Assembly: GCA_964526655.1 (NCBI GenBank)
Contig: CAZGIZ010000003.1
Coordinates: 851-64,850, forward strand
Direction of reading: 5' to 3'
Length of the DNA: 64,000 nt
Source: an uncultured Desulfobacteraceae bacterium
Lineage (GTDB): Bacteria > Desulfobacterota > DSM-4660 > Desulfatiglandales > HGW-15
Shown: piece after piece, positions 40,194-64,000 of the stretch
Position numbering within the stretch: the first letter of the stretch is position 1
How the letters are laid out: every line of letters starts with the position of its first letter
Program-made: the position numbers and the translations under genes
Notes under the pieces: generated by a model
The model's input: the letters and a program-made list of their open reading frames with translations, nothing else
Told to the model about the DNA's origin: nothing
Databases searched by the model: none

Positions 40194-40213
40194 ATTCCGG
40201 CGAAGGCCGGAAT
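40194..40213. repeat. ATTCCGGC-GAAG-GCCGGAAT hairpin unit (VIPAKAGIQ-type repeat)
   Basis: Perfect 8-bp stem with a tetraloop. The same unit, with a GAAA loop, occurs at 52137-52156. Confidence 0.6.
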
Positions 40214-40241
40214 CCAGAGTGAACTAAAAAAGAGGTCGGAA

Positions 40242-41051: not shown

Positions 41052-41069
41052 TAATATGGAGGGAATAAA

Positions 41070-43028: not shown

Positions 43029-43033
43029 CTATT

Positions 43034-43209: not shown

Positions 43210-43240
43210 GAAGACACACGATTAAACTGCGGGCAGTCCC

Positions 43241-49113: not shown

Positions 49114-49490
49114 CCGGCTGTTTGAGTTGGCTTTAGGTTGGCTGGACCTTCCACTTGTGTTTCAGCTTTGGCTAATAACGCCGATATAGCGGAAAGGATC
49201 GCGATTCCAGACGCGGCCAGAAACGCCCATCTTAGACCATTGAGGAAAATCCCCAGTTGATCGGACGCGAATAATCCCGCGTGACCTTGAGTGGTGAAGG
49301 GAGCTAAATTGTACACAATCGTGCCCGCGATAGCGATACCAAACACCATACCGACATTACGCATCATGGCCAGGATACTGGAAGCGACACCTCGAAATTG
49401 AATTGGAGCGCTGCCCATGGCCGCGCTATTCATAGGGCTCTGGAACAAACCACCTCCCAGTCCACAGACGGCCAACCGCCAAACAATGTC
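49110..49490 (-). pseudogene. C-terminal fragment of an MFS transporter
   Basis: Only about 3 transmembrane segments remain (LAVCGLGGGLFQSPMNSAAMGSAP...). There is no N-terminal half, and the start is a TTG. Confidence 0.5.
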
Positions 49491-49541
49491 TATGGTTTTG
49501 GCGTCCTTAAATTTAATCTGAGGGTCTCCTTTGCCTTTTTA

Positions 49542-49745
49542 TCAACACCTGTAACAACTGTCTTTACCAAATTCACTGCTCCCCAATATTCGCTCATCAG
49601 AAAGAATTTTACTCCCGGCGCTCCTCAGTGAAAGAACCTGTGGCCATCCGCCAAGACTGCGTTTAAGAACCCCACCAACCAGATCCGGCAGTCTTCCTTC
49701 TGCTATACCGTTTACAATGAACTCATCACATTTTTCTATCGCTCT
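49542..49745 (-). pseudogene. internal fragment of an IS200-like/REP-associated-type transposase-family ORF
   Basis: It reads AEGRLPDLVGGVLKRSLGGWPQVLSLRSAGSKILSDERILGSSEF, a motif I associate with that family. It has no catalytic N-terminus and no start codon. Confidence 0.4.
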
Positions 49746-49810
49746 TTTTCGCCTCTTTCCAACCTGCCGTCTTTGGACAAAAGCGTTTGTAAATTGATTT
49801 TAATTCGAAG

Positions 49811-49838
49811 TTGACATCTACCTTTTTCGGAGTATAAT
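49811..49838 (+). promoter_or_regulatory. near-consensus sigma70 promoter
   Basis: TTGACA (49811-49816), a 16-nt spacer, then TATAAT (49833-49838), about 38 nt upstream of ATG 49876. Confidence 0.5.
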
Positions 49839-49875
49839 CCAGAATGGTTAAACTGATTTGGAGAATATTCCGAAA

Positions 49876-51036: not shown

Positions 51037-51100
51037 ACTGAACTTATTAAAAGGCGAGAGACCCGCTGAACAATATCTTTAAAGTTCTTTCAGAAACTTA

Positions 51101-51523
51101 ATGGATAGGTTTGCCCTAAAGGGTTGGTGGTGTCAAAGGCCGTTTAAAATTGAGCCATTTTCGGTCGTCAAAATTGAGCCGGTACTGGAGAAACTCAACG
51201 AGCTGAAGCTGAACCTGGCCCACAACGACAGGACAGGGAGCAAGTGGCAGGAAAAAATCGCCGATCTCATCATGAGATACCCTAATGTTTACACGGACAA
51301 CTCCTACGATACTGAGATGTGGTACATGCCGAGGCGATGTTTTCGCAGCATCAAGCGCATGCTTGAGACCCCCAAATTCCAGGATCGTGTGCTGTACGGC
51401 ACGGACTGGTACATGGGCAGATGGCTATGGACGGAGGCATCCTACCTGAAATGGTTCACCCTTTACCCTCAAAAAATCTTCTGGTGCGACGTTGTATTTA
51501 GGGAAAAGGGGACAATCCTATAG
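51101..51523 (+). pseudogene. C-terminal fragment of an amidohydrolase-2-type protein
   Basis: Only the tail is recognisable (...RVLYGTDWYM...). The metal-binding N-terminal half is absent. Confidence 0.35.
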
Positions 51524-51614
51524 TCTCCTGTCAAGCAAAAAATAAAAGGTTACAATATCAATGAGTTAAAGCGCCTCCTGATTTTGGAAAGGGGGACGTA
51601 GGTTCTAAAACAAT

Positions 51615-51770
51615 TTAAATATATTTTCTAATCTCCGGCAACTCATCGGGCACGGCTAAACGATTAACCGCTGAAGTTGTGATACCAAGAAACCGCGCCA
51701 CGTCCGCTTCGGAATATCCCATCCTCAAAGTACAGGAAACAACAGGCAATCCCTCACGTCCGGATCTGTG
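51615..51770 (-). pseudogene. C-terminal HTH fragment (MGYSEADVARFLGITTSAVNRL...)
   Basis: Resembles the HTH tail found at the end of the same transposase-like family as 49542-49745, but there is no upstream body. Confidence 0.3.
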
Positions 51771-52084
51771 CGGGGATGCCATGTTACCGGCATTCCCATT
51801 GCGATCCCTTTACATAAAACACCTCTGTTTTCCTCCTAAAATAGGGGATATACCCCATTGTAGAACCTTCCCCTCTTCGGTTATGTTGGAGATGATGTTG
51901 GCTGTTGTGTAAAAAAGGTTTTTCGATGATGAATCTTTATCCGTTAATTGGGAGGGCTGAATCCGGGACGATAGAACATAACACTGTATGGAGATTGGAT
52001 TTTGTCACTTTTTCTACGAATGATCGAAATTCATTATAGGAAACCGGGTCTTAAGGGCCGGGATAAAGATAATATGTGGTCGGA

Positions 52085-52241
52085 CCCAATGTCATTAACT
52101 TAAGCCTTCAGCCCCGATATATAAGTCTCAGGCGTCATTCCGGCGAAAGCCGGAATCCAGTCTTTTCAGGCCTTCTGGACCCCGGCTTTCGCCGGGGTGA
52201 CGGTGTGGGAATACAATTCCCCTTAAGTTAATGGCAGTGGG
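52085..52241. mobile_element. 157-nt MITE-like element
   Basis: 20-nt terminal inverted repeats: CCCAATGTCATTAACTTAAG (52085-52104) and CTTAAGTTAATGGCAGTGGG (52222-52241). They enclose two inverted copies of a 27-nt self-hairpin unit, with stems at 52137-52156 and 52180-52197. Confidence 0.6.
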
Positions 52242-52443
52242 ACCATGGTAACCATTTGGAGTGATTAGACAATTCTCTAAGAATAGCCTCTATAAGGGCT
52301 TAAACAATCAATTTTGATGCCGAAACGAACGTTTTCTCAAAAGGAAGGTTCCCTCAGGCATTTTCGGACGTTTTGTATCCAAATATCCAGATCTGGATTA
52401 ATTTTATCTTGACAGGAAAATATTATTGTAGATAGATAGAATT

Positions 52444-52458
52444 TTACACAATGTGTAA
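52444..52458. promoter_or_regulatory. perfect 7+1+7 palindrome TTACACA-A-TGTGTAA upstream of ORF 52467
   Basis: It ends 9 nt before the TTG start and lies downstream of a TTGACA at 52409-52414. Confidence 0.35.
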
Positions 52459-52466
52459 TTTTAATT

Positions 52467-52928
52467 TTGCAAATAACATCCATGCCATTTGTAGATGCCA
52501 TGAAACATAAAGCTAATACAGACAATATGGTAGATGAAGAGCAATTTGATGTATACGAACAATTTACACCTAAAGTAAGAAAAATCCTGCGTGAATACCG
52601 CAAGCACCGCAAACTTTCGGCCATTGCCAACAGTATAGGCATCAATCCGGTCCGCCTGGCCGAGATGATCAATAAGGACAGAAGAGGCCAATATAAAAGA
52701 AAGGTTACCCCCTATTACCTCTCCAAATTTTTTGACGGAAGGGTAATGACCGTCGAACAAGTCCTGGATGGTCGCAGCCTGGAAGACCTCCCCAATCGCG
52801 TACAGCTCTTTTTCGAAAGGCATATTTTGCCAAGGAAGACAATCCGACTCGTTATTGAGGCCCAGAGACGTGGAATTGATATCGATAGAGTTCTCGAACT
52901 GATTCTTTATCCGGAGAATGAGGGATAG
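52467..52928 (+). CDS. hypothetical protein, possible HTH
   Basis: 153-aa ORF containing LSAIANSIGINPVRLAEMINKDRRG (HTH-like). I do not recognise a family. Confidence 0.4.
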   Translation: MQITSMPFVDAMKHKANTDNMVDEEQFDVYEQFTPKVRKILREYRKHRKLSAIANSIGINPVRLAEMINKDRRGQYKRKVTPYYLSKFFDGRVMTVEQVLDGRSLEDLPNRVQLFFERHILPRKTIRLVIEAQRRGIDIDRVLELILYPENEG

Positions 52929-53058
52929 ATTTTGCTTTGTGCTCATCCACAAACTGACGTTTCTGGATGGGTACTAACTACATAATATAGAGGGGGCGAT
53001 TGATATGGAACAGGTGAGTTCAAAAGATACCTATAAAAATTAGGAGACCGCTCACAAG

Positions 53059-53570
53059 GTGGCGGGTATGGCAGACCCTCGCGAATGGGCAAAAACAGGC
53101 AGCCAGATTTATATTGAGGGTTCCGGGTCCAAGCTGACGGGGATTGACGGAAAGGGATACCTTGATGCGACATCTTGCGGGCTGACAAACAACATAGGTT
53201 ATGGGAACCGGGAGATGGCTGAGGCAGCAAAGGAGCAGATGATCAAACTGTACCATGTCCCTAATTTTGGGGGCCAAGTCGGCCTGCCCTATATCAAGCT
53301 GGCACAAAAGCTTGCTGAAATCTCACCCATGCAACGCTTCCTGGTGGAGAATAGCGGATCGGAGGTGGTGGACGCCGCTTTCAAGGTCGCACGGTTGTAT
53401 TGGCGGGAAAACGGCCTCGATAAGTATAAGATTATCTCCCTGGAACGGGCCTATCATGGCTTCACCTTCGGTGCGTTGAGCGCAATGGGTGTCCCCATGT
53501 TTAAGAGTTCAATCTTTAATCCTCTGGTCCCGGGAACTCTATGTCTTGAGCTCCCGGTAACGGCCGTTGA
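53059..53570 (+). pseudogene. N-terminal ~170 codons of a class-III (omega-type) aminotransferase, truncated
   Basis: GSKLTGIDGKGYLDATSCGLTNNIGYGNREMAEAAKEQM...ENSGSEVVDAAFKVARLYW...LERAYHGFTFGALSAMG matches the family. Homology stops near 53570, the PLP-lysine region is missing, and the frame runs into the AOR-3 gene. Confidence 0.6.
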
Positions 53571-53611
53571 AACCCAAGGCCATAAATTTACAAACCAAAT
53601 GGAGGTGAAAC

Positions 53612-55525
53612 ATGGCATACGGTTATATGGGGAAGATCCTGTTCGTGGACCTTTCCACGGGTAAGGTCGGGCAGGAAACACCTGAAGAGAGTTTTTATCG
53701 CGCATACATAGGGGGTTATGGTGTCGGTGCCAGGATCGTCTTCAGCCGGCAAAAAGCCGGGGTCGATCCTCTTGGTCCGGAGAACACGCTCGGCTTTATG
53801 ACCGGGCCGCTCACGGGGACCGATTTTCCATTCGGCGGGAGGTATACGGTTTTTGTGGGCAAATCACCGCTGACAGGCGGGTGGGGAGATGCCAATTCAG
53901 GGGGAGATTTCGGACCCTACCTGAAGTTCAGCGGCTACGACGGCGTTGTGTTCACCGGAGCGTCCGAGAAACCGGTTTACCTCTATATAAAAGATGGCAA
54001 AGCAGAGATAAAAGACGCCTCTCACCTCTGGGGAAGAGATACCGTTGAAACGGAGGATATGCTGAAGGAGGAACTGGGAAAGGATGTAAGGGTCGCCTGT
54101 ATCGGAGCTGCCGGGGAAAATCTTTCACTGATCTCAAGTGTGATAAATAACAAGGGGAGGGCGGCCGCCCGCTCCGGCGTGGGCGCCGTCATGGGCTCGA
54201 AGAAGCTGAAGGCGGTTGCAGTGGCCGGGACCGCGGAGATTCCCGTGGCCGACAGGGAGGAGGCCAAAAAATTAAGGAAAAAGATTGTCGGGAAGCTGAA
54301 AGAGTTTCAAACGGCCAATTTGTTTATCCAATATGGCAGTTCCGGCATAACGGCCCAATTTGCTGAGTTCGGGGAGGCTCCGATAAAAAATTGGGGAGGT
54401 GTCGGTGCCAGGGATTTCCCCAATTTCGCCCTTATCAGTGATGATCATGTGATCAATCTCCAGGAGAGAAAGTATGGGTGTTACCGCTGCCCGATAAGCT
54501 GCGGCGGTCACATGAAAGCGGGGACGGGGGAATATCATTACAGGGCCGGCGCTCATAAACCCGAGTATGAGACGCTTGGGGCCTTTGGGACCACTTGCCT
54601 TAATGATAATCTCGAGTCGATCGTCATGGCCAATGAAATTTGCAATCGACAGGGACTGGACACTATTTCAGCGGGCGCGACCATTGCCTTTGCCATGGAA
54701 TGCTATGAGAAGGGCATCATTACCAAAGAGGATACGGGCGGATTGGATCTCACCTGGGGCAACCATAAAGCTATTGTGGCATTGACCGAACAAATGGCCC
54801 GGAGGGAGGGTTTCGGCGGCGTCCTGGCCGATGGCGTGAAGGTGGCCTCGGAGAAGATCAAGAGAGGATCGGAAAAATACGCCATCCACATTCACGGGCA
54901 GGAGCCGCCCATGCACGATCCCCGAAATACCCCCAGCTTTGCCACCGTGTATAAATCCGACGCGACACCGGGCCGTCACATGCAGGGAAGCTGCGCCCAC
55001 TTTGAAATGGGAATCCTCGAGGGTCTGGAATTTCCCCACTTCGGGATTACCATTCCTCCTGTGGACAGGGAGACCTTTAAACACACCTACACCGGAAAGG
55101 GTAAATGGGAAACCCTGTTTAGGAGCCAGAGCCATTTGGGCAATACAGCCGGCGCATGTCTTATCGCCGACCTGGGACCGGGCATGGTCACACCGGTTGA
55201 CACCATACCCAATTTTCTTTCCGTGGTTACGGGCTGGCAGATATCCCCTGAGGAAATGCTGAGAATCGGAGAGAGGATTGCAACTATCCGGCAGGCTATC
55301 AATGTGCGCGAGGGTTTGAGGCCTGCAGACTTCAAAATGCCGGGACGTGTAACAGGGAATCCGCCTCTCGATGAGGGGCCGACCGCGAATATTACCGTGG
55401 ACGCAGAGACGTTGGTGGCGGAATATTACAAGGCAATGGATTGGGACCTGGAGACTGGGAAACCCAGCAAGAAGAAGCTGATCGACCTGGATCTGGAAGA
55501 TGTGGCCCGGGAATTCTGGTCATAA
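53612..55525 (+). CDS. aldehyde:ferredoxin oxidoreductase family enzyme (AOR-3)
   Basis: 637 aa, the closest paralogue of AOR-1 (GKSPLTGGWGDANSGGDFGPYLKFSGYD, GRAAARSGVGAVMGSKKLKAVAV, CYRCPISCG, EYETLGAFGTTC). RBS GGAGGTGA. Confidence 0.9.
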   Translation: MAYGYMGKILFVDLSTGKVGQETPEESFYRAYIGGYGVGARIVFSRQKAGVDPLGPENTLGFMTGPLTGTDFPFGGRYTVFVGKSPLTGGWGDANSGGDFGPYLKFSGYDGVVFTGASEKPVYLYIKDGKAEIKDASHLWGRDTVETEDMLKEELGKDVRVACIGAAGENLSLISSVINNKGRAAARSGVGAVMGSKKLKAVAVAGTAEIPVADREEAKKLRKKIVGKLKEFQTANLFIQYGSSGITAQFAEFGEAPIKNWGGVGARDFPNFALISDDHVINLQERKYGCYRCPISCGGHMKAGTGEYHYRAGAHKPEYETLGAFGTTCLNDNLESIVMANEICNRQGLDTISAGATIAFAMECYEKGIITKEDTGGLDLTWGNHKAIVALTEQMARREGFGGVLADGVKVASEKIKRGSEKYAIHIHGQEPPMHDPRNTPSFATVYKSDATPGRHMQGSCAHFEMGILEGLEFPHFGITIPPVDRETFKHTYTGKGKWETLFRSQSHLGNTAGACLIADLGPGMVTPVDTIPNFLSVVTGWQISPEEMLRIGERIATIRQAINVREGLRPADFKMPGRVTGNPPLDEGPTANITVDAETLVAEYYKAMDWDLETGKPSKKKLIDLDLEDVAREFWS

Positions 55526-55546
55526 AAGGCGCATGGGAAAAGGGCA

Positions 55547-56503
55547 ATGACTGCATACATTATACGGCGCCTGATACAGGGAATATTCGTTATTATTCTT
55601 GTAACAATAGTTATTTTTATCGCTATGCGTATCCTGCCTGGCGACCCTCTCAAGATTTATATCGTGGAGCAAGATATCAGCCTTGTCACCCCCGAATTGG
55701 AAGCGCAGCTACGGCATAAATTCGGATTAGATAAAAACATGGTGATGCAATATTTTGATTGGATGGGGGGGTTGTTCCGCGGCGATATGGGAATATCCAT
55801 ACATTACCAAGACTCCGTAGCCGTCCTGATGGCCAAGCGTGTGCCTATAACATTGCTCCTGGGCCTCCTGTCCTTTTTCATTAGCAGCATTCTTGGTATG
55901 CTAACCGGCGTGCTATCAGCGCTCAGGCGAGCCAGCCTGATGGATAATATTCTAACATCTTTTGCTAATCTTGGTATATCCGTCCCCCCATTTTGGCTGG
56001 GTATATTATTGATTTACTTATTCGCAGTAAATCTTGGATGGTTGCCGGTCCAGGGTTATGTTTCACCACTTGATGACCTGTGGGAAAGTGTCAAGCGTTT
56101 GATCCTGCCCGTTTCCGTGTTATCTTTTTGGGGCATGGCTTTTGTCTCTCGCCAGGCCCGCTCAAGCATGCTTGAGGTCCTCACACAGGACTATGTACGC
56201 ACTGCCTGGTCTAAAGGTTTGCGAGAACAGGTCATCGTATTGCGGCATGTCTTGAAAAACGGGCTAATCCCGGTGGTGGCTGTAATAGGCATGCGGCTTA
56301 GCTTCCTTATCGGGGGGATGGTCATTCTGGAGAATGTATTTAATATACCCGGGGTGGGCCGGTTGTTGGTGACCAGTGTCCTTAGTCAGGATTACCAGGT
56401 CGTTCAAGCCGGGATTTTGATTATTGCCATATCTGTAGTGGTGGTAAATCTCTTCATCGATATCTGCTACGGTTGGATCGACCCAAGAATCAAGTATCGC
56501 TGA
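55547..56503 (+). CDS. ABC permease, DppB/OppB type
   Basis: 318 aa with the N-terminal pattern YIIRRLIQGIFVIILVTIVIF..RILPGDP and a BPD_transp_1 core. Confidence 0.85.
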   Translation: MTAYIIRRLIQGIFVIILVTIVIFIAMRILPGDPLKIYIVEQDISLVTPELEAQLRHKFGLDKNMVMQYFDWMGGLFRGDMGISIHYQDSVAVLMAKRVPITLLLGLLSFFISSILGMLTGVLSALRRASLMDNILTSFANLGISVPPFWLGILLIYLFAVNLGWLPVQGYVSPLDDLWESVKRLILPVSVLSFWGMAFVSRQARSSMLEVLTQDYVRTAWSKGLREQVIVLRHVLKNGLIPVVAVIGMRLSFLIGGMVILENVFNIPGVGRLLVTSVLSQDYQVVQAGILIIAISVVVVNLFIDICYGWIDPRIKYR

Positions 56504-56514
56504 GGAACTTAAAA

Positions 56515-57411
56515 TTGAAAAAGAACAAGACAGATGAAAGAGAATTTTCAGAAGTAAGACCCCGCGTCGCTGAATTCCGACGCTTCATCCGGATAATGGG
56601 TGGGAGGTGGGTAGTAATTTTCGGCACAATCATTATCGTGATTCTGATAATCACTGCTGCTTTTGCGCCTCAAATAGCCCCCTATGATCCTAATAAACCA
56701 GATCTACCCAACCGGCTTCTTAAACCATGCAGGGAGCACCTTCTCGGTACGGACTCTATGGGGAGGGATACGCTGAGCCGCATTATTTTCGGTGGCCGAA
56801 TCGCCTTATCCGTCGGTGTGGTGGCTACCAGCATTGCTGCCATGATAGGGATAACCCTGGGTCTGATTGCGGGTTATTTAGGTGGTATTTTATCTGTAAT
56901 TATTATGCGGCTGGTGGACTCGCTTATGGCTTTCCCCATCATAGTGATGTCTTTGGTGCTCGCTGTGGTACTCGGCGGTGGACTTACTAATATCATGATT
57001 GCAGTAGGTATCGGTCTATCTTCCACATATGCCAGGGTAATGTGCGCTACCGTGCTCAGTGTAAAGGAGAACGAATACATCGAGGCGGCCCGGGCTATGG
57101 GGGCCAGTAACATGAGAATAATGATAAACCATGTCTTCATGAATTGCTTTCCGCCAATCCTGGTGGTAATAACGATGAACATGGGGACTGCCATCATGAT
57201 TGAAGCCGCACTAAGTTACCTCGGTGTTGGTGTTGCGCCGCCCACAGCGGCTTGGGGTTCGCTTGTCACCGAAGGCTACAGGTATCTCATGACCAATCCA
57301 ACGCTGGCCCTGTCCCCGGGCATAGCTATAATGTTAGTGGTATTTTCTTTCAATATGGTCGGAGACGGTTTAAGGGATGCGCTTGACCCGAGGTTGAGGG
57401 GAACGATTTAG
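56515..57411 (+). CDS. ABC permease, DppC/OppC type
   Basis: Carries APYDPNKPD...LGTDSMGRDTLSRIIFG and a BPD_transp_1 core. The start is uncertain: a TTG at 56515 after GAGGA, or a TTG at 56473. Confidence 0.8.
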   Translation: MKKNKTDEREFSEVRPRVAEFRRFIRIMGGRWVVIFGTIIIVILIITAAFAPQIAPYDPNKPDLPNRLLKPCREHLLGTDSMGRDTLSRIIFGGRIALSVGVVATSIAAMIGITLGLIAGYLGGILSVIIMRLVDSLMAFPIIVMSLVLAVVLGGGLTNIMIAVGIGLSSTYARVMCATVLSVKENEYIEAARAMGASNMRIMINHVFMNCFPPILVVITMNMGTAIMIEAALSYLGVGVAPPTAAWGSLVTEGYRYLMTNPTLALSPGIAIMLVVFSFNMVGDGLRDALDPRLRGTI

Positions 57412-57565
57412 CTTAAACTGTTCGTATCCAAAGGAAGGAGGTGATGTAATATGATATAATATATAGTGAAGACTGTTTTTCAATATGTGTAGTCGGTCAA
57501 ACAAATATTAGAAGTCTATCTATGGAAGTAAAAAAATAGGCAAACATTGTTAATAAATTTGGAAT

Positions 57566-58459
57566 ATGGCAAATGAAAGGAAAAATAACATGAACAATAT
57601 TGATAGTTTGACGTCCGGCGCTATTGATATGCATGTACATTTCGGACCTGAGTCCCTGATGGAAAGGCGCCAGGATGCATTAAGATTAGCTCGGACGGCC
57701 AAAGAGATCGGCCTAAGAGCCCTGGTACTCAAGTGCCGGGAATATAATACCGTTCCTATTGCGCAACTGGTAAGTGAGTTAGTCCCGGAGGTCCAGGTGT
57801 TCGGCAGTTTGACCCTTGAAAATGAAATCGGTGGGCTTAATCCTGCCGCCGCAATATCCGCTGCACGGATGGGAGCCAAGGTCATCTGGATGCCCACGTT
57901 TTCCTCCTCCAACTCCAAATCAGTGGTGGAAAAGGTCCTGGGCTTCACTCTGCCCGGAGAAGAACAGGCGATCCTGGATTCCGGTGGTCAATTGAAGGCT
58001 GAAGCTAAGGATATCCTCAAGATAGCGAAGGAGTTTGATATCGTTGTTGCCAACGGGCATATCTCTCCTAAAGAGACTTTCGCTCTTGCCGAGGAAGCTC
58101 AAAAAATCGGTTTTAAAAAGCTATTGATCACCCACGCCCTTCAAGGCGCACTCACCAGCGTTCTATGCAGCAGTGATCAACTCAGACAACTGGCGGCCGG
58201 GGGCGTATACATCGAGCATTCTTTCTGGGACCTGTTGCCCACCATGAATAGCATTGATCCGGAACAAATTGTGGAACTGGTGGGAACCGTTGGCGCAGAA
58301 ATGTGTATTATGAGTACCGACCTCGGCCAGAGCTATAACCCTCCCGCACCGGAAGGCATGCGTTTGTTCATCGGGACCATGTTGAGAAAAGGACTTAAAG
58401 AGGACCAGGTCGAAGTGATGGTGAAAACGAATCCTGCGAAACTTTTAGGGCTGAATTAA
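57566..58459 (+). CDS. amidohydrolase-superfamily-like TIM-barrel protein of unknown function
   Basis: GAIDMHVHFGPE (metal-binding HxH-type start), ANGHISPKE and LLITHA. Family membership is from motif memory only. Confidence 0.45.
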   Translation: MANERKNNMNNIDSLTSGAIDMHVHFGPESLMERRQDALRLARTAKEIGLRALVLKCREYNTVPIAQLVSELVPEVQVFGSLTLENEIGGLNPAAAISAARMGAKVIWMPTFSSSNSKSVVEKVLGFTLPGEEQAILDSGGQLKAEAKDILKIAKEFDIVVANGHISPKETFALAEEAQKIGFKKLLITHALQGALTSVLCSSDQLRQLAAGGVYIEHSFWDLLPTMNSIDPEQIVELVGTVGAEMCIMSTDLGQSYNPPAPEGMRLFIGTMLRKGLKEDQVEVMVKTNPAKLLGLN

Positions 58460-58474
58460 ATACGAGGAAAAACC

Positions 58475-59788
58475 TTGCAAAATACCGAGATAAACTTGCC
58501 GTTCGGTGATTCTTTTCTTCCGGTAACCTTACCATTTGACAATGTATGCAGTGTTATTGAAGCGAAACACGTTCCCGGTGTGAGAGACGAAAGAGAAGCG
58601 ATACAAGAGGGTCTACGAAATCCCATAGGAAGTGTCAAACTGCTGGAGCGAATCCATAAAAATGACAAAGTACTAATAATAACTACCGATAATACCCGTC
58701 ATTGTCCGGACTATAAAATAGTTCCGGTCTTATTAGACGAACTTGAACAGAAAGTGCCGCGACGGAATATAACCTGTATAGTGGCTTTGGGTTTGCATAC
58801 CCCTTTGAGCCGGGAGGAGTTGATTAAGAAACTTGGAAAGAGAATCATCAATGATTACAAGGTATTAAACCATAATCCGGATCAGGTTGTGTCACTTGGA
58901 ACAACCTCTTTCGGGACACCGGTTGAGGTAAATTCAGAATTAACCAAAGCGGATTTCCGCATCGGCATAGGTTTTATCGAGCCCCACTTCTTTGCAGGGT
59001 TTTCCGGTGGTAGAAAGAGCGTAGCTCCCGGCTTAAGCAGTGCCAACGCGATTAGAAAAAACCACAGTTATGCAATGATAGAACATCCCAATGCCCAGGC
59101 AGGGATTCTGAAGGGGAATCCAATCCATGAAGATATGGTAGAGCAGGCTAAAATGGCTAACCTCGATTTTATTGTGAATGTGCTCCTGAATAAGGAAAAA
59201 CAGATCTCCCATGTCTTCGCCGGAGACCCCTGGTTAGCTCATGAATTGGGTTGTGATGTCGAGAAAGGAATAGTCGGGGTGGAAGTAGACCATATGGTAG
59301 ATATTGCTCTTGTTACCAACGGGGGCGCACCTCTGGATTTGGATTTTTATCAAACATGCAAAGGAATCTATACCGCTTCCCGGATAACCCGTCCTGGTGG
59401 GATAATCATAGTAGCTTCCTGTTGTAGCAGCGGCCTTGGACCGGATGCATTCAAGAACCTGCATTCTTCGAATGCTTCACCCGGAGAGGTCCTGGAAATG
59501 ATAAGGGACAGCCATCATGTTGGAGTACAATGGCAGAACCAGATCTTAGCCCATGCTCAATTGGATCATGCTATCTATCTTCTATCAAATCTTTCGGATG
59601 ACGAAGTTAAAAAGATGATGGTAACCCCCATTCATACAATAGAAAAGGGATTGGACGAGGCCTTTGGTATTTTAGGGAAAAAAGCAGAGATAGCCGTGAT
59701 CCCGGAAGGGCCTTTAATCCTACCGATAGTAAGCCGGGCTGATAGTCAGCAATCGGTTCAGCCACTAAAGGGGATAAATACGCAATGA
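58475..59788 (+). CDS. LarA-like nickel-pincer (NPN) dependent 2-hydroxyacid racemase/epimerase family protein (DUF2088)
   Basis: 437 aa with ALGLHTP, GFIEPHFFAGFSGGRKSVAPG and KGNPIHEDM. The catalytic His, tethering Lys and Ni-ligand His positions, as I recall them from LarA, are all present. TTG start after GAGGA. Confidence 0.75.
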   Translation: MQNTEINLPFGDSFLPVTLPFDNVCSVIEAKHVPGVRDEREAIQEGLRNPIGSVKLLERIHKNDKVLIITTDNTRHCPDYKIVPVLLDELEQKVPRRNITCIVALGLHTPLSREELIKKLGKRIINDYKVLNHNPDQVVSLGTTSFGTPVEVNSELTKADFRIGIGFIEPHFFAGFSGGRKSVAPGLSSANAIRKNHSYAMIEHPNAQAGILKGNPIHEDMVEQAKMANLDFIVNVLLNKEKQISHVFAGDPWLAHELGCDVEKGIVGVEVDHMVDIALVTNGGAPLDLDFYQTCKGIYTASRITRPGGIIIVASCCSSGLGPDAFKNLHSSNASPGEVLEMIRDSHHVGVQWQNQILAHAQLDHAIYLLSNLSDDEVKKMMVTPIHTIEKGLDEAFGILGKKAEIAVIPEGPLILPIVSRADSQQSVQPLKGINTQ

Positions 59789-59933
59789 ATTTTTTATCCG
59801 TAGTATTTTTTCTTGATGCCAGCAGAAATTCCTGCGTAGGCCTCGGAAAGGAGAATTCTCATCTCTATCCGTTTATAGACAACCTACCAGGCTTACGAGA
59901 CAACCTTATCAATAACATATAGGAGGTGTTATT

Positions 59934-61430
59934 ATGCATCTGTTTGGAACATATGACGTAGTGGTTGTGGGTGGCGGGGCATCCGGCTGCGCGGCCGCCA
60001 TTGCTTCAGCAAGGGCTGGAGCCAAAACGATCCTCATTGAGCGCTTTGGCATCCTGGGAGGCTCGATGAACGTTTCCGGCCCTCCAGGATGGGCCTTCTC
60101 TCACCTCTGGAACGACCACGGAGAAACCATTCTTGCCGGCATCGTTGAGGAGACGCATCACCGGCTGGAAAAAGAAGGGCATGCCCTGCCTTACCCCAAG
60201 CCGGAGGACCGGGACTATTTCAACGCCTATGCCTTCGTCGATCCCGACTGGTGGGGGCTTCTCATCTTCGAGATGATGACGGAAGAAAAGGTGAAGTTGC
60301 TGATGCACTCCCCGGCGGTCGACGTGCTGAAAGAGGGCGACGCCCTTAAGGGCGTGATCGTCGAGAACACCTCCGGCCGGATGGCGGTCATGGGCAAGGT
60401 GATCATTGAAGCCACGGGTGAGGGAGATATCGCCGTCCGGGCCGGTGTCCCTTACACCAAGATCGACAGGACCAAGGAAGAGATCGATCCGCCTTCCATT
60501 ACCTTCCACATGGACGGTGTGGACTGGGACAAGGTCACGGCGTACGTAAAAAATAACCTGGATGAATTCGTTCCCGAAACCCATTACGGCCTGAAACGAT
60601 CGCCTCATGAACAGGAGATCGCTAAACGAAGCCGAGAGAAAATTAAAAACTGCAAGTCCATCATCGATCTGGTCAAGGAAGGGACTATGGGAACCATCAC
60701 CTTCCCCAAGTTCACGCGCCAGGCCCTGGATGCCGGCGAGCTACCCCCATACGGGGTCGATCTGGGGTTCTTCTTCACCCCGAAAGACGGCGGGCACATC
60801 CAGCCCATCTTCCAGCACTCGGCCCAGGTGCCCGACTGTGATACCAACGATATAAGGGAGCTGAGCGCTGGGGAGGCGGAGGCCAGGAGGCAGGTTGCCA
60901 TCGCCCTGAAAGCCGCCAGGAAGTATCTCCCCGGCTTCGAAAATGCCTACTTCACCAGGCTGACCTCCTATATAAGGACCCGGGAGGGACGTCACATGAT
61001 CGGCGATTACCAGATGCAAAGCGAGGATGTCGAAGCGTCAAGGAAATTTCCGGATGTCATCGCCAAGTGCGCCATGCCCACGCAGGCAGGAGGGCCTTTC
61101 CACTCTGCCGCCCACGAAGGTGAGTCCATGAATATCGACCCCAATCGCAAAAGGTGGAGCCCTAAGGATGGCGGGTCATTCGACATCCCGTACCGGAGCC
61201 TGGTGCCGAAGAACGTCGAGGGCATGCTGATAACCGGTAAATTGATGTCATGTTCGGAAGACTTTAAAAGAGACCTCTTACCGGACAACATGGTCTGGGG
61301 CCAGGCGAGCGGAGTGGCCGCGGCCATCTGTGCCAGAAAAGGCATCACTCCTCGCCAGCTTGAGGAAGATGTCTCGGAGCTCCAGGAGATCCTGCAAAAG
61401 CAGGGCGCTATCCTGTTCGGAACGAAGTAA
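59934..61430 (+). CDS. FAD-dependent oxidoreductase (PF12831-like), tandem copy 1
   Basis: N-terminal YDVVVVGGGASGCAAAIASARAGAKTILIERFGILGG. RBS AGGAGG. Confidence 0.7.
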   Translation: MHLFGTYDVVVVGGGASGCAAAIASARAGAKTILIERFGILGGSMNVSGPPGWAFSHLWNDHGETILAGIVEETHHRLEKEGHALPYPKPEDRDYFNAYAFVDPDWWGLLIFEMMTEEKVKLLMHSPAVDVLKEGDALKGVIVENTSGRMAVMGKVIIEATGEGDIAVRAGVPYTKIDRTKEEIDPPSITFHMDGVDWDKVTAYVKNNLDEFVPETHYGLKRSPHEQEIAKRSREKIKNCKSIIDLVKEGTMGTITFPKFTRQALDAGELPPYGVDLGFFFTPKDGGHIQPIFQHSAQVPDCDTNDIRELSAGEAEARRQVAIALKAARKYLPGFENAYFTRLTSYIRTREGRHMIGDYQMQSEDVEASRKFPDVIAKCAMPTQAGGPFHSAAHEGESMNIDPNRKRWSPKDGGSFDIPYRSLVPKNVEGMLITGKLMSCSEDFKRDLLPDNMVWGQASGVAAAICARKGITPRQLEEDVSELQEILQKQGAILFGTK

Positions 61431-61475
61431 TCGAAAAAAAACACAAAATGGTTACATGGAAAGGAGTTTGTCAAC

Positions 61476-62975
61476 ATGGAAATTTATGGGGAATATGACG
61501 TCGTGGTGGTAGGAGGGGGAGTATCAGGGTGCGCGGCCGCCATCTCTTCAGCCAGGGTCGGGGCCAAGACAATACTTATCGAGCGCTTTGGCATCCTGGG
61601 AGGCTCGTTGAATGTTTCCGGCCCTCCAGGATGGGCCTACTCTCACCTCTGGAACGACCAGGGAGAAACCATTATCGCCGGCATTGTCGAGGAGACGCAT
61701 CACCGGCTGGAAAAAGAAGGGCATGCCCTGCCCTACCCAAAGCCCGAGGTTCGAGACTTTCAGAACAGCTTTGCTTTCGTCGATCCCGACTGGTGGGGGC
61801 TTCTCATCTTCGAGATGATGACGGAAGAAAAGGTGAAGTTGCTGATGCACTCCCCGGCGGTCGACGTGCTGAAAGAGGGCGACGCCCTTAAGGGCGTGAT
61901 CGTCGAGAACACCTCCGGCCGGATGGCGGTCATGGGCAAGGTGATCATTGAAGCCACGGGTGAGGGAGATATCGCCGTCCGGGCCGGTGTCCCTTACACC
62001 AAGATCGACAGGACCAAGGAAGAGATCGATCCGCCTTCCATTACCTTCCACATGGACGGCGTGGACTGGGACAAGGTCACCGCGTACGTGAAAGAGAACA
62101 TGGATGATTTTGCCGAGGAAATCCGGGGTATGGGGACCAGGTTGGGAACGTCCCAGGATGAACAGCGCAGGAACAATCGCGTGGAAAACCTTAAAAACTG
62201 CAGGTCAATCATCGACCTTGTCAAAGACGGGACCCTGGGAGCGATTAATTTTCCCACACTAACGAAACAGGCCCTGGATGCCGGCGATTTTCATGGCCAC
62301 GGCGATCTGGGATTCTTCTTCACCCCGAGGGACGGCGGGCACATCCAGCCCATCTTCCAGCACTCGGCCCAGGTGCCCGACTGCGATGCCAACGATGTAA
62401 GGGAGGTGAGCGCGGGGGAGGTGGAGGCCAGGAGGCAGGTTGCCATCGCCCTGAAAGCCGCCAGGAAGTATCTCCCCGGCTTCGAAAAGGCCTACTTCAC
62501 CAGGCTGACCTCCTACATGAGGACCAGGGAGGGACGTCACATGATCGGCGACTACCAGTTGGTCATCGAAGATGTAGCCGATGCGAGAAAATTCGACGAT
62601 GTCATCGCAAAAAGCGGCATGCCGGCCTCGGCGGGGGGGCCCTTCCACTCCGCAGCGCACCCCGGTCGAGCCATGAATCTTGATCCCAATAGAAAGATGG
62701 CAAGACCCAAGGATGGCGGGTCATTCGACATCCCGTACCGGAGCCTTGTGCCGAAGAACGTCGAGAACATGTTGATGTCCGGAAAACTTATCTCGTGGAC
62801 AGAGGACTTTAAGAGAGACCTCCTGCCGGAAAACATGGTGACCGGCCAGGCAGCAGGCGTGGCAGCCGCCCTGTGCGTCAAGAAAGGCATCACTCCTCGC
62901 CAGCTTGAGGGGGATGTCTCGGAACTCCAAGAGATACTTGTCAAACAGGGGGCCATATTAACCGGGACTCACTGA
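61476..62975 (+). CDS. FAD-dependent oxidoreductase (PF12831-like), tandem copy 2
   Basis: N-terminal YDVVVVGGGVSGCAAAISSARVGAKTILIERFGILGG. Colinear with copy 1 at a constant offset of 1542 nt over the N-terminal third, including the identical tract. Confidence 0.7.
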   Translation: MEIYGEYDVVVVGGGVSGCAAAISSARVGAKTILIERFGILGGSLNVSGPPGWAYSHLWNDQGETIIAGIVEETHHRLEKEGHALPYPKPEVRDFQNSFAFVDPDWWGLLIFEMMTEEKVKLLMHSPAVDVLKEGDALKGVIVENTSGRMAVMGKVIIEATGEGDIAVRAGVPYTKIDRTKEEIDPPSITFHMDGVDWDKVTAYVKENMDDFAEEIRGMGTRLGTSQDEQRRNNRVENLKNCRSIIDLVKDGTLGAINFPTLTKQALDAGDFHGHGDLGFFFTPRDGGHIQPIFQHSAQVPDCDANDVREVSAGEVEARRQVAIALKAARKYLPGFEKAYFTRLTSYMRTREGRHMIGDYQLVIEDVADARKFDDVIAKSGMPASAGGPFHSAAHPGRAMNLDPNRKMARPKDGGSFDIPYRSLVPKNVENMLMSGKLISWTEDFKRDLLPENMVTGQAAGVAAALCVKKGITPRQLEGDVSELQEILVKQGAILTGTH

Positions 62976-63036
62976 ACAAGTGGCAAAGGCCGTTAAACAA
63001 TTTTCTTAAACCTACATGGATAGGAGGTGCTTTACC

Positions 63037-64000
63037 ATGAAAAGATTAATGAAAACTATTCTATTCTGTATCTTAATTCTTACCATAGTAGGAGTCGGGT
63101 TAGTCAGCACAGGGCATGCCAAACCGAAGTACGGCGGAAATTTTACAAATATCTTCAACAACATGCCCCGTCAGTTCGGGTATACTCCTACCTTTGCAGC
63201 CGCTGAGGTGGCACCTGCGTACCCGTGCGTCGAACCCCTAATCAAGTCAGACAGAAAGGGTGCACCCACACCTCATCTGGCTACGGACTGGCAAATAGCC
63301 CCTGACGGGAGCTCCATTACGTTTCACCTGAGGAAGGGCGTCAAGTTTCAGGACGGCACGGACTTCAATGCCGAGGCTGTCAAATACAATCTTGACCTGG
63401 TAATGAAGGAGCGTCCAGGGGAGTTGATTGGGGTAAAGTCTGTAGAGGTCGTTGACGAACATACCGTACGGTTGAACCTTGACTTCTTCGCCAATAATAT
63501 CTGGAGCAGGCTGGGTTCGAGAATTTTAATTTCTTCGCCCACACATCTTGCCAAGGGCGAAGATGCTGTCAAATTCCATCCGCTGGGCACAGGGCCCTTC
63601 GTCTTTAAGGATTTTGAGCGTGATGTATTCGTATCCTATACCCGGAACGATAATTACTGGCAAAAGGGTAAACCATATCTTGATACCATGAAATTTGTAT
63701 GGATCGCAGACCCGATGACGGCTGCCGCCTCCTTTCGGGCAGGAGAAGGAGACGCCTTCCGCGTTGGAAGGGAGTTTAAAGAGGCCCATGATCTGGAAAG
63801 TGAAGGATTTATCGCCAATGCTATTCCAAGTTTGCTCATGGGGTTGGCGCCCGATACCAAGAATCCTAATTCGGTTTACAAGGATATCAGGGTACGCGAA
63901 GCTATCGAGTATGCTATTGACCGGAACGCCCTGACGAAAGCCTTCGGATACGGATTTCTTAAGCCCCGTCCCCTGTTTAGTCCGCCCGGATCTCCAGGCT
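63037..64000 (+). CDS. ABC transporter substrate-binding protein, family 5 (DppA/OppA/NikA type); its 3' end lies beyond the window
   Basis: Not in the ORF track because no stop is reached. ATG 63037 follows TAGGAGG. It has a signal peptide (MKRLMKTILFCILILTIVGVGLVSTGHA) and then typical SBP_bac_5 motifs (LATDWQIAPDGSSITFHLRKGVKFQDGTDFNAEAVKYN, GTGPFVFKDFERD). Confidence 0.8.
   Translation, partial: MKRLMKTILFCILILTIVGVGLVSTGHAKPKYGGNFTNIFNNMPRQFGYTPTFAAAEVAPAYPCVEPLIKSDRKGAPTPHLATDWQIAPDGSSITFHLRKGVKFQDGTDFNAEAVKYNLDLVMKERPGELIGVKSVEVVDEHTVRLNLDFFANNIWSRLGSRILISSPTHLAKGEDAVKFHPLGTGPFVFKDFERDVFVSYTRNDNYWQKGKPYLDTMKFVWIADPMTAAASFRAGEGDAFRVGREFKEAHDLESEGFIANAIPSLLMGLAPDTKNPNSVYKDIRVREAIEYAIDRNALTKAFGYGFLKPRPLFSPPGSPG

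What the first reader, a model, noticed from the sequence alone, without database searches (positions are those of the whole stretch)
53612..64000. AOR-led operon with four enzymes embedded between the ABC permeases and their binding protein
The gene order is AOR-3, DppB-like, DppC-like, an amidohydrolase-like TIM-barrel protein, a LarA-like protein, two FAD oxidoreductases, and then the family-5 binding protein. All are on the + strand with short gaps.

No ABC ATPase gene is visible inside the window. The LarA homologue retains the motifs I associate with nickel-pincer cofactor binding and catalysis (PHFFAGFSGGRK, GNPIH). No larB, larC or larE is nearby.

LarA homologues racemise or epimerise 2-hydroxy acids. 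Combined with a tungsten AOR and two flavoenzymes, this points to uptake and stereo-inversion/oxidation of a hydroxy acid or a peptide-like compound. I cannot match it to a described pathway.
Basis: partly seen in the sequence, partly recalled or inferred. Interest (0 to 1): 0.6.

Follow-up and report, generated by a model that had tools for sequence, protein, structure and literature searches.

The report
Importer-linked flavoenzyme, hydrolase, nickel racemase cluster
The genes are real, but the conserved unit is an uncharacterised nutrient-breakdown set (an uptake system, an unknown flavoenzyme, an unknown metal hydrolase and a nickel-cofactor lactate/glycerate racemase), and the tungsten aldehyde oxidoreductase at its head looks like a local add-on.

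Summary
All eight genes are present at the stated coordinates on the + strand. The LarA homologue keeps every catalytic and nickel-pincer-binding residue. It carries the published lactate-racemase-group signature F175/F176/W358/Q359, and enzymes of that group racemise lactate and glycerate in vitro.

Comparison with about 90 related loci changes the picture.
- **Conserved core:** a PF12831 flavoenzyme and DUF6282 (73-84% identical in loci whose labelled relatives are Chloroflexota), usually with a LAR-type LarA.
- **Link to the importer:** in four other loci, three of them from Desulfobacterota or Zixibacteria MAGs, a PF12831 flavoenzyme sits inside a Dpp-like ABC operon.
- **Closest relative (L174):** it holds FAD-FAD-SBP-permB-permC-LarA in a different block order.
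- **Block borders:** in the window they coincide with two AT-rich gaps, so it may not be one transcript.
- **AOR:** it is not an orthologous partner (36% identity to the AORs near related clusters, and five AOR paralogues lie in this window).
- **ATPases:** they are also absent from L174 and the Zixibacteria locus.

DUF6282 relatives repeatedly sit next to glycerate kinase or tartronate-semialdehyde-reductase-like genes.

Best reading (about 0.4): an imported carboxylated solute is converted by the flavoenzyme and the hydrolase to a C3 2-hydroxy acid, and LarA then inverts it. The substrate is unknown and no paper in the library describes the cluster. Moderately interesting; a new variant of a known kind.

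The parts
53059..53664 (+). Truncated class-III aminotransferase fragment (context, probable pseudogene). It marks a rearrangement junction just upstream of and overlapping the AOR start.
   Evidence: Pfam Aminotran_3 covers only profile positions 12-166 of 403. The ORF overlaps the AOR start by 53 nt. It gave no hit at E<=1e-10 to the aminotransferase next to L084/L095.
53612..55525 (+). AOR-family tungsten/molybdopterin aldehyde:ferredoxin oxidoreductase (637 aa). It is adjacent to the cluster but is not a conserved member of it.
   Evidence: AFOR_N 261 bits and AFOR_C 356 bits. Best solved relative is P. furiosus AOR 1aor, 368 bits. A CxxCxxxC motif is visible in GCYRCPISCGG. Only 36% identical to the AORs beside L084/L095.
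55547..56503 (+). ABC importer permease, DppB/OppB/NikB-like (318 aa).
   Evidence: BPD_transp_1 + BPD_transp_1_N. NCBIfam hits lie below all equivalog cut-offs; best is Opp2B at 298 bits. 64-70% identical to the permeases of L174 and L004.
56473..57411 (+). ABC importer permease, DppC/OppC/NikC-like (312 aa from a TTG; the true start may lie a few codons downstream).
   Evidence: BPD_transp_1 + OppC_N. 65-72% identical to the permeases of L174 and L004.
57412..57589 (.). AT-rich intergenic gap (29% GC). It is the border between the transporter block and the DUF6282-LarA block, and a possible internal promoter region.
   Evidence: Composition and sequence. The block border is inferred from the L174 comparison.
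57590..58459 (+). DUF6282 protein, a metal-dependent amidohydrolase-fold (TIM barrel) enzyme of unknown reaction (289 aa; the ORF could start at 57566).
   Evidence: PF19799 200 bits. A 289-aa form, 100% identical over the 97% of the ORF it covers, is on record as P0121. HxH (15/17), H157, H182 and D244 are invariant in 42 homologues. Model pLDDT 91; Foldseek TM 0.6-0.68 to dipeptidase-like, PTE-like lactonase, LigI-like and decarboxylase amidohydrolases.
58475..59788 (+). LarA homologue: a nickel-pincer-nucleotide-dependent 2-hydroxy-acid racemase of the lactate racemase (LAR) group, predicted to act on lactate/glycerate.
   Evidence: Lar_N + LarA_C. NF033504 429 bits against a cut-off of 460. 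264 and 256 bits to LarA structures 2yjg and 5huq. Residues D72 R75 H108 H174 F175 F176 K184 H200 Y294 Q295 K298 W358 Q359. LAR signature taken from PMC11770544.
59789..59933 (.). Intergenic gap with a promoter-like site (TTATCA-18-TATTAT, TG-extended) at 59906-59935. It is the border between the DUF6282-LarA block and the FAD-FAD-SBP block.
   Evidence: block border.
59934..61430 (+). PF12831-type FAD-dependent oxidoreductase, copy 1 (498 aa), reaction unknown.
   Evidence: PF12831 281 bits over the full length. GxGxxG at residues 13-18. 73-78% identical to the flavoenzyme next to DUF6282 in L084/85/87/90/95. 88% identical to the upstream copy in L174.
61476..62975 (+). PF12831-type FAD-dependent oxidoreductase, copy 2 (499 aa). 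It is a tandem paralogue of copy 1 with a gene-conversion tract.
   Evidence: PF12831 283 bits. 83% nucleotide identity to copy 1, with a 284-nt identical run. Model pLDDT 90.9; only the FAD-binding domain resembles solved structures, best 3oz2 at TM 0.44.
63037..64000 (+). Family-5 (Opp/Dpp/Nik-type) periplasmic solute-binding protein: N-terminal 321 aa with a signal peptide, cut by the window end.
   Evidence: SBP_bac_5 185 bits. Nearest solved relatives are GsiB/YliB 102 bits, NikA 93 bits and AgaA 89 bits, all distant. 61-64% identical to the SBPs of L174 and L004.

Best explanation
The interval holds a conserved but uncharacterised catabolic gene set built from three blocks: [permease B, permease C], [DUF6282, LarA] and [flavoenzyme, flavoenzyme, binding protein]. 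An AOR gene has been joined on at the 5' end.

Proposed working:
1. A Dpp/Opp-type ABC importer takes up a small carboxylated organic solute. Its ATPase subunits are encoded elsewhere.
2. The PF12831 flavoenzyme oxidises the solute.
3. The metal-dependent amidohydrolase-fold DUF6282 enzyme hydrolyses, ring-opens or decarboxylates the product.
4. The route ends in a C3 2-hydroxy acid (glycerate or lactate). In this genome it may pass through an aldehyde that the neighbouring AOR oxidises with ferredoxin.
5. The LAR-type nickel-pincer racemase then inverts C2. Enantiomer-specific enzymes encoded elsewhere (glycerate kinase or a D-lactate dehydrogenase) can then use the product.

Shown: gene content, residue conservation, and co-occurrence of the families across lineages.
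Inferred: the substrate, the order of the steps and the role of AOR.
For: 1. The same gene set recurs in the closest relative with the blocks shuffled. L174 reads FAD(88%)-FAD(83%)-SBP(61%)-permB(64%)-permC(65%)-<LarA(78%).
2. PF12831 flavoenzyme genes sit inside or beside Dpp-like ABC operons in four other loci: L174, L004 (Zixibacteria), L092 (Deltaproteobacteria) and L126.
3. Among the ten DUF6282 loci at 75% identity or more (window included), the flavoenzyme is adjacent or within two genes in 8. One has no flavoenzyme (L094) and one is not assessable (L127). LarA is adjacent in 5. Two distant DUF6282 paralogues (41-46%) also sit next to divergent LarA-family genes.
4. LarA keeps all NPN-binding and catalytic residues and the LAR signature F-F-W-Q. 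LAR-group enzymes racemise lactate and glycerate, and the Q359-type LarAH43 is slightly more efficient on glycerate than on lactate (PMC11770544).
5. There is a glycerate theme around DUF6282. A glycerate kinase (TIGR00045, 467 bits against a cut-off of 168) lies beside the core in L084/85/87/95 and beside 51-53% paralogues in L102/L104. A gene like 2-hydroxy-3-oxopropionate reductase lies beside the 62-65% group.
6. Aldehyde-oxidising enzymes of different families occur near several relatives: AOR in L084/L095/L088, an AOR-ADH fusion in L100/101, and an NAD-ALDH in L004.
Against: - No glycerate kinase or D-lactate dehydrogenase lies in this 64-kb window.
- The reactions of the flavoenzyme and of DUF6282 are unknown. 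Neither has a close solved or characterised relative.
- The binding protein's nearest solved relatives bind glutathione, nickel chelates or an opine, not hydroxy acids.
- The window's LarA is only 58% identical to the LarAs in the glycerate-kinase-linked loci. Many 60-70% relatives of it sit in other contexts.
- GC3 heterogeneity and the AT-rich gaps suggest recent assembly and possibly separate transcription.
- The AOR is not orthologous to those near related clusters.
Confidence: 0.4

Rival explanations
1. Oxidative, non-phosphorylative sugar or deoxy-sugar route. This is a specific version of the main idea.
- The flavoenzyme is a sugar 1-dehydrogenase and DUF6282 is the sugar lactonase.
- Later steps (dehydratase, then an aldolase or a dehydrogenase plus hydrolase) give pyruvate plus L-lactaldehyde/L-glyceraldehyde or L-lactate/L-glycerate.
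- AOR oxidises the aldehyde and LarA inverts the L-acid.
For: - The Pfam families that some DUF6282 relatives also hit include Amidohydro_2 and PTE, both of which contain lactonases.
- The known non-phosphorylating L-fucose/L-rhamnose pathway uses a dehydrogenase, a cog3618 amidohydrolase lactonase, a dehydratase, then an aldolase or an SDR plus FAH hydrolase, and ends in L-lactate. It is reported in SAR202 Chloroflexi (PMC11199699).
- Related loci carry matching families: an FAH-family hydrolase directly after FAD-DUF6282 (L090); an SDR above the 'glucose 1-dehydrogenase' subfamily cut-off; a two-subunit AcnX dehydratase; a glycerate kinase (L085, L087); and DHDPS-type aldolase-like genes near paralogues.
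Against: - No PF12831 enzyme is known as a sugar dehydrogenase.
- The FAH protein scores better as HpaG-like than as rhamnonate-pathway hydrolase.
- No dehydratase, aldolase or glycosidase lies in this window's cluster.
- Family-5 binding proteins take oligosaccharides rather than monosaccharides (my knowledge).
Confidence: 0.15
2. Catabolism of a peptide-like, opine-like or other amino-acid-derived compound.
- The Dpp-type importer brings in an N-substituted amino acid, a dipeptide or a cyclic amide.
- DUF6282 acts as a dipeptidase or cyclic amidase.
- The flavoenzyme oxidises a C-N bond or a D-amino acid.
- LarA handles a 2-hydroxy acid formed from the resulting 2-oxo acid.
For: - The binding protein and permeases are nearest to GsiB, NikA, AgaA (agropinic acid) and CntA/C types.
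- The top Foldseek TM scores of the DUF6282 model include renal-dipeptidase-like proteins (2i5g, GliJ, Sco3058, PvdM; TM 0.62-0.68).
- Sarcosine oxidase, proline dehydrogenase and NikD appear among the flavoenzyme's fold matches.
- Relatives of both enzymes sit next to UGSC (seleno)protein, thioredoxin-reductase-like and EutA-like genes, which are typical of amino-acid-derivative metabolism in anaerobes.
Against: - All matches are distant and cover only generic fold elements.
- The HxH motif is not the HxD motif of renal dipeptidases (motif from my knowledge).
- The glycerate kinase and tartronate-semialdehyde-reductase neighbours are not explained.
Confidence: 0.2
3. LarA acts first, not last. 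The cell takes up or forms a 2-hydroxy acid (lactate or glycerate). LarA equilibrates the enantiomers. The flavoenzyme is the enantiomer-specific 2-hydroxy-acid dehydrogenase. DUF6282 then processes the 2-oxo acid, for example by decarboxylation to an aldehyde that AOR oxidises.
For: - LarA genes commonly accompany stereospecific lactate dehydrogenases (for example the Acetobacterium woodii lct operon; my knowledge).
- In L087 the LarA gene directly follows ETF, GlcD-like and CCG-domain genes.
- The Amidohydro_2 relatives of DUF6282 include non-oxidative decarboxylases.
- Several invariant arginines in the flavoenzyme fit a carboxylate substrate.
Against: - Hydroxy acids are normally imported by permeases or TRAP systems, not Dpp-type ABC systems.
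- The flavoenzyme is tied to the importer even where LarA is absent (L004, L092, L126).
- The glycerate kinase next to the core points to glycerate as an end product.
Confidence: 0.15
4. Mosaic of unrelated genes. The blocks were brought together by recombination next to a decayed region and do not form one pathway.
For: - Gene fragments, a muramidase gene, an AAA/DUF4143 gene and nested inverted repeats lie directly upstream.
- GC3 runs from 0.44 to 0.72 within the cluster.
- Two AT-rich gaps lie at the block borders.
- The AOR is not a conserved partner.
Against: The flavoenzyme, binding protein, permeases and LarA are together again in L174 in another order. Flavoenzyme-DUF6282-LarA recurs in several loci in three different arrangements.
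Confidence: 0.1

Closest known systems
Lactate racemase LarA of Lactiplantibacillus plantarum and the LAR group of the LarA superfamily (PDB 5HUQ, 2YJG; LarAH43/51 in PMC11770544)
   Same: - Two-domain LarA fold.
- Catalytic H108/H174, K184 (cofactor attachment), H200 (Ni ligand), R75, Q295 and K298 are all kept.
- Specificity signature F-F-W-Q.
   Different: - It scores 429 bits, just under NCBI's 460-bit equivalog cut-off.
- There is no larBCE and no lar-type nickel transporter nearby.
- It is embedded with a flavoenzyme, DUF6282 and a Dpp-type importer rather than in a lar operon.
- The physiological substrate is untested.
Dpp/Opp/Gsi/Nik (PepT-family) ABC importers
   Same: A family-5 binding protein with a signal peptide plus two BPD_transp_1 permeases with OppB/OppC N-terminal features.
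   Different: - No ATPase genes in the interval. They are also absent from L174 and L004, although L092 and L126 have them.
- Four enzyme genes separate the permeases from the binding protein.
- All equivalog scores lie far below their cut-offs, so the ligand is unassigned.
Non-phosphorylating L-fucose/L-rhamnose pathway (dehydrogenase, amidohydrolase-type lactonase, dehydratase, then aldolase or dehydrogenase plus FAH hydrolase; ends in L-lactate or L-lactaldehyde) (PMC11199699)
   Same: - An oxidoreductase is paired with an amidohydrolase-fold hydrolase.
- The end product is a C3 L-2-hydroxy acid or aldehyde.
- FAH hydrolase, SDR, dehydratase-type and aldolase-type genes occur in related loci.
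   Different: - The oxidoreductase here is an FAD enzyme of an uncharacterised family, not an NAD(P) dehydrogenase.
- DUF6282 is not cog3618.
- No dehydratase or aldolase lies in this cluster.
- No activity has been tested.
Archaeal non-phosphorylative Entner-Doudoroff end steps (glyceraldehyde:ferredoxin oxidoreductase of the AOR family, then glycerate kinase)
   Same: An AOR-family enzyme sits next to a route that, in related loci, is tied to glycerate kinase.
   Different: - The resemblance is recalled from my knowledge and was not tested.
- There is no glycerate kinase in the window.
- The AOR is not conserved with the cluster.

Membership tests
LarA superfamily (NPN-dependent 2-hydroxy-acid racemases/epimerases) | Lar_N and LarA_C domains | tested here: met
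   PF09861 205 bits and PF21113 97 bits.
LarA superfamily (NPN-dependent 2-hydroxy-acid racemases/epimerases) | Two catalytic histidines (H108, H174), Lys184 for covalent cofactor attachment, His200 as nickel ligand, and Arg75 | tested here: met
   All are kept on alignment to 5HUQ/2YJG and in a 128-sequence alignment.
LarA superfamily (NPN-dependent 2-hydroxy-acid racemases/epimerases) | Cofactor biosynthesis genes larB, larC and larE in the genome | not testable with these tools
   None lies in the 64-kb window. The rest of the genome could not be retrieved.
Lactate racemase (LAR) group / NCBIfam NF033504 equivalog | Specificity residues F175, F176, W358, E/Q359 | tested here: met
   F-F-W-Q in the window protein and in all LarAs co-located with FAD-DUF6282. 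Rule taken from PMC11770544.
Lactate racemase (LAR) group / NCBIfam NF033504 equivalog | Score above the curated equivalog cut-off (460 bits) | tested here: not met
   429.4 bits. It is still the best-scoring model, ahead of the malate racemase models (391 and 335 bits against cut-offs of 500 and 462).
Lactate racemase (LAR) group / NCBIfam NF033504 equivalog | Racemase activity on lactate (or glycerate) | not testable with these tools
   Needs the purified enzyme loaded with NPN.
AOR family (tungsten aldehyde:ferredoxin oxidoreductase) | AFOR_N plus AFOR_C domains and the [4Fe-4S] cysteine motif | tested here: met
   368 bits to 1aor. CxxCxxxC is visible in the translation. The fourth cysteine and the pterin ligands were not checked individually.
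PepT-type (Opp/Dpp) ABC importer | Family-5 binding protein plus two permeases plus two ATPases with the oligo_HPY domain | tested here: not met
   The binding protein and both permeases are present. No ATPase lies in 53.6-64 kb, and the contig ends about 1.8 kb after the window. Close relatives L174 and L004 also lack ATPases.
Amidohydrolase superfamily | (beta/alpha)8 barrel with HxH after strand 1, His after strands 5 and 6, and Asp after strand 8 | tested here: met
   H15/H17, H157, H182 and D244 are invariant. The model has pLDDT 91 and barrel matches. The bridging ligand and the metal content are unknown.
PF12831 FAD-dependent oxidoreductases | Full-length match to the family profile and an N-terminal GxGxxG dinucleotide-binding motif | tested here: met
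   281 and 283 bits over profile positions 1-416. G13-G15-G18 are invariant. No member with a known reaction was found.

The most novel reading that the evidence does not exclude
The PF12831-type flavoenzyme and DUF6282 form a previously undescribed two-enzyme route of anaerobes. It converts an ABC-imported solute into L- or racemic glycerate (or lactate). A nickel-pincer racemase is the obligatory stereochemical gate before glycerate kinase. This would be the first physiological role for glycerate racemisation, and the first function for DUF6282 and for this flavoenzyme clade.
Probability: 0.2. Interest if true: 0.65.

Novelty: new variant of a known kind. Interest (0 to 1): 0.45.

Why it matters
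LarA-type nickel-pincer racemases were recently shown to act on glycerate and other small hydroxy acids in vitro. The authors state that the physiological meaning is unknown (PMC11770544).

This cluster and its relatives give a concrete genomic context in which to test that. A LAR-type racemase is tied to two uncharacterised enzyme families: DUF6282, with about 4,300 representatives at 50% identity, and a PF12831 flavoenzyme clade found in MAGs labelled Chloroflexota, Deltaproteobacteria, Zixibacteria, Bathyarchaeia and Firmicutes. It is also tied to a dedicated importer and, in relatives, to glycerate kinase.

Identifying the imported substrate would assign functions to two large 'unknown' families common in anoxic sediments and soils.

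Tried and rejected
**Downstream sequence (missing ATPases, rest of the binding protein).**
- Exact look-ups of window proteins found no contig on record.
- The source (an NCBI contig of 65,848 nt from a deltaproteobacterial MAG) is not among the GTDB representatives.

**AOR and the aminotransferase as conserved partners: rejected.**
- AOR-3 is 36% identical to the AORs beside L084/L095, about the same as another AOR paralogue in this window (35%).
- The aminotransferase fragment has no significant match to theirs.

**Malate, 2-hydroxyglutarate or gluconate specificity for LarA: rejected.** The signature residues and the lower NCBIfam scores argue against them.

**Function of the flavoenzyme and DUF6282 from structure.**
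- Both models are good (pLDDT about 91).
- PDB Foldseek returns only generic FAD-domain and amidohydrolase-barrel matches.
- Profile searches of PDB sequences add nothing.

**Gene fusions as a clue.** A search of 1.8 billion representatives found only a tandem DUF6282-DUF6282 protein and one fusion whose extra C-terminal ~330 aa looks by eye like a solute-binding-protein domain; that domain was not searched.

**Regulatory elements.** No Rfam match, no sigma-54 promoter above chance, and no convincing terminator between the genes.

**Literature.** Searches for DUF6282, PF12831, 'glycerate racemase' and 'lactate racemase' + 'glycerate kinase' found nothing relevant.

Full report
**Observation.**
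The ORF list and profile searches confirm eight co-directional genes between 53.6 kb and the window end:
- an AOR-family gene (53612-55525);
- two Dpp/Opp-type permeases (55547-56503 and 56473-57411);
- a DUF6282 protein (57566/57590-58459);
- a LarA-like protein (58475-59788);
- two PF12831 FAD oxidoreductases (59934-61430 and 61476-62975);
- a family-5 binding protein that starts at 63037 and is cut after 321 aa.

Most gaps are short (15-61 nt, plus one overlap). Two are long and AT-rich: 57412-57589 (178 nt, 29% GC) and 59789-59933 (145 nt, with a promoter-like site). No Opp-type ATPase lies in the interval. The only ABC ATPases in the window (29180-30650) belong to a Liv-type system. No larB, larC or larE was found among any non-nested ORF of 200 aa or more. 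The AOR start overlaps the 3' end of a truncated class-III aminotransferase fragment. Further fragments and a muramidase gene lie upstream. The 5' border of the cluster is therefore a rearrangement scar.

**The LarA homologue.**
It aligns over its full length with solved LarAs (2yjg 264 bits, 5huq 256 bits). It is the best hit of NCBI's lactate racemase model, at 429 bits against a cut-off of 460. In an alignment with 120 homologues and the L. plantarum enzyme it keeps D72, R75, H108, H174, K184, H200, Y294, Q295 and K298. It has F175, F176, W358 and Q359 at the four specificity positions.

Urdiain-Arraiza et al. (PMC11770544) report that the lactate racemase (LAR) group 'usually exhibits F, F, W and E/Q' there. 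They also report that LAR enzymes racemise lactate, glycerate and 2-hydroxybutyrate, and that the Q359 enzyme LarAH43 is slightly more efficient on glycerate than on lactate.

**What is conserved.**
The source contig (NCBI, 65,848 nt, a deltaproteobacterial MAG by the label of a 90%-identity cluster member) could not be retrieved. I therefore compared related loci.

The closest one, L174, has FAD (88% to copy 1), FAD (83% to copy 2), the binding protein (61%), permease B (64%), permease C (65%), a flavoenzyme fragment, and then LarA (78%) on the opposite strand. This is the same set as in the window, but three blocks are permuted: [permB permC], [DUF6282 LarA] and [FAD FAD SBP]. The block borders in the window are exactly the two AT-rich gaps.

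Other loci repeat the link between flavoenzyme and importer:
- A Zixibacteria locus (L004) has FAD-SBP-permB-permC-FAD at 58-72% identity and no ATPase.
- A Deltaproteobacteria locus (L092) has FAD-SBP-permB-permC-ATPase-ATPase.
- L126 has SBP-permB-permC-FAD-ATPase.

A PF12831 flavoenzyme embedded in a Dpp-like operon is thus a recurrent design, and absent ATPases are a feature of this subgroup rather than only an effect of the window edge.

**The flavoenzyme-DUF6282-LarA core.**
I collected 85 loci with a DUF6282 gene (look-ups; metagenome scan). I called ORFs in them and clustered the ORFs.
- Ten loci carry DUF6282 at 75% identity or more (window included). Eight have the flavoenzyme adjacent or within two genes, one does not (L094), and one is not assessable (L127). 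Five have a LAR-signature LarA adjacent.
- Between the window and these loci (labelled relatives are Chloroflexota or Dehalococcoidales) the flavoenzyme is 73-78% identical and DUF6282 75-84%. LarA is only 57-58% identical and AOR 36%.
- The gene order differs among them (FAD-DUF-LarA and LarA-FAD-DUF). This argues for selection rather than mere shared ancestry.
- Matching 'longest contig' lengths in the three protein hit lists (for example 18,304, 4,715, 4,496, 28,747 and 24,728 nt for DUF6282 and FAD; 14,058 nt for DUF6282 and LarA) suggest further co-located cases, but only indirectly.
- Two distant DUF6282 paralogues also neighbour divergent LarA-family genes.

**Hints to the chemistry.**
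A glycerate kinase (467 bits against a cut-off of 168) and a two-subunit AcnX-type dehydratase flank the core in L084, L085, L087 and L095. The glycerate kinase also flanks DUF6282 paralogues of 51-53% identity in L102 and L104; in L104 an AcnX large subunit is there too. The 62-65% group sits next to a gene like 2-hydroxy-3-oxopropionate reductase. One locus has an FAH-family hydrolase right after FAD-DUF6282.

More distant paralogues (38-50%) sit mostly next to UGSC-domain proteins of about 600 aa (31 of 85 loci). Other neighbours there are glycyl-radical enzymes with their activases, URO-D-like, DHDPS-like and thioredoxin-reductase-like genes, and family-5 binding proteins.

The structure models are confident (pLDDT about 91) but uninformative about the reactions.
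- The flavoenzyme shares only its FAD domain with solved proteins; the best match is 3oz2 at TM 0.44.
- DUF6282 is an amidohydrolase barrel with HxH, His, His and Asp ligands. It is about equally distant from dipeptidases, PTE-like lactonases, LigI-like hydrolases and decarboxylases.
- The binding protein is distantly nearest to GsiB, NikA and AgaA.
- The AOR is nearest to P. furiosus AOR.

**Interpretation.**
The best-supported reading is a substrate-specific catabolic module. In it, an imported carboxylated solute is processed by the flavoenzyme and DUF6282. A LAR-type racemase then inverts a C3 2-hydroxy acid (glycerate or lactate) for enantiomer-specific downstream enzymes. In this genome the AOR may oxidise an aldehyde intermediate, but it is not a conserved member of the set.

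I give this scheme about 0.4. The rivals are a sugar-oxidation variant, an amino-acid-derivative/opine variant, a 'LarA first' variant and a mosaic reading. They are listed in the rival explanations with their evidence. The single-operon claim is doubtful. The 'AOR-led' and 'LarA + PF12831 + AOR triad' claims are not supported.

**Novelty.**
No paper in the searchable library mentions DUF6282. None links LarA to glycerate kinase or gives a function for PF12831. All parts belong to known superfamilies, and the LarA is a member of a known group. I therefore class this as a new variant of a known kind, with moderate interest. It offers a testable physiological context for the recently found glycerate activity of LAR enzymes, and an entry point to two large uncharacterised families.

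Noticed in passing
window 6201-17274 (- strand): A Bam-type class II benzoyl-CoA reductase-like gene set. It has a BamB-like AOR-family gene (15316-17274, 690 bits to PDB 4z3w) followed by HdrD-like, HdrA-like (1043 aa), MvhD-like, NuoF-like and Fe-S subunit genes. The window therefore comes from an obligate anaerobe that degrades aromatic compounds.
   Followed up: partly
window 1938-3944, 15316-17274, 24039-25907, 45059-46897, 53612-55525: Five AOR-family paralogues lie within 64 kb. This density lowers the weight of any single AOR adjacency.
   Followed up: partly
window 30817-44509 (+ strand): A second uncharacterised organic-acid cluster. It holds a GntR/UTRA regulator, two MmgE/PrpD proteins, PrpF, a PEP-mutase/isocitrate-lyase-like protein, an SDR, two OYE-plus-pyridine-nucleotide-disulphide-type enoate-reductase-like proteins, a metallo-beta-lactamase-fold protein and an aconitase-family protein. 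Upstream lie an AOR and a Liv-type ABC system (24039-30650).
   Followed up: no
window 47403-53664: A low-GC stretch (0.44) directly upstream of the cluster. It holds an N-acetylmuramidase gene, an AAA/DUF4143 ATPase gene, an Amidohydro_2 fragment (51101-51523), a class-III aminotransferase fragment (53059-53664) and nested inverted repeats at 52082-52244. It looks like a rearrangement or mobile-element scar.
   Followed up: partly
window 59934-62975: The two flavoenzyme genes are tandem paralogues with 83% nucleotide identity. One run of 284 nt is identical (alignment columns 301-584), which indicates recent gene conversion. Their GC3 (0.72) is far above that of LarA (0.44).
   Followed up: yes
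L100 4051-6897 and L101 3544-6390: A single 949-aa ORF fuses an AOR (AFOR_N + AFOR_C) to an iron-containing alcohol dehydrogenase. It lies near a DUF6282 paralogue.
   Followed up: no
31 of 85 DUF6282 loci, e.g. L126 10929-12755, L129, L136: DUF6282 paralogues of 38-50% identity are usually flanked by proteins of about 600 aa with an N-terminal UGSC (seleno)protein domain. They are often accompanied by thioredoxin-reductase-like, URO-D-like, DHDPS-like and glycyl-radical-enzyme genes. This is an uncharacterised anaerobic gene neighbourhood in its own right. UGSC proteins also lie near flavoenzyme homologues in L092 and L093.
   Followed up: partly
L084, L085, L087, L095 (e.g. L085 3887-6985): A two-subunit AcnX-type (aconitase X) dehydratase and a glycerate kinase stay adjacent to the FAD-DUF6282-LarA core through three different gene orders. 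The AcnX scores only weakly against cis-3-hydroxy-L-proline dehydratase, so its substrate is open.
   Followed up: partly
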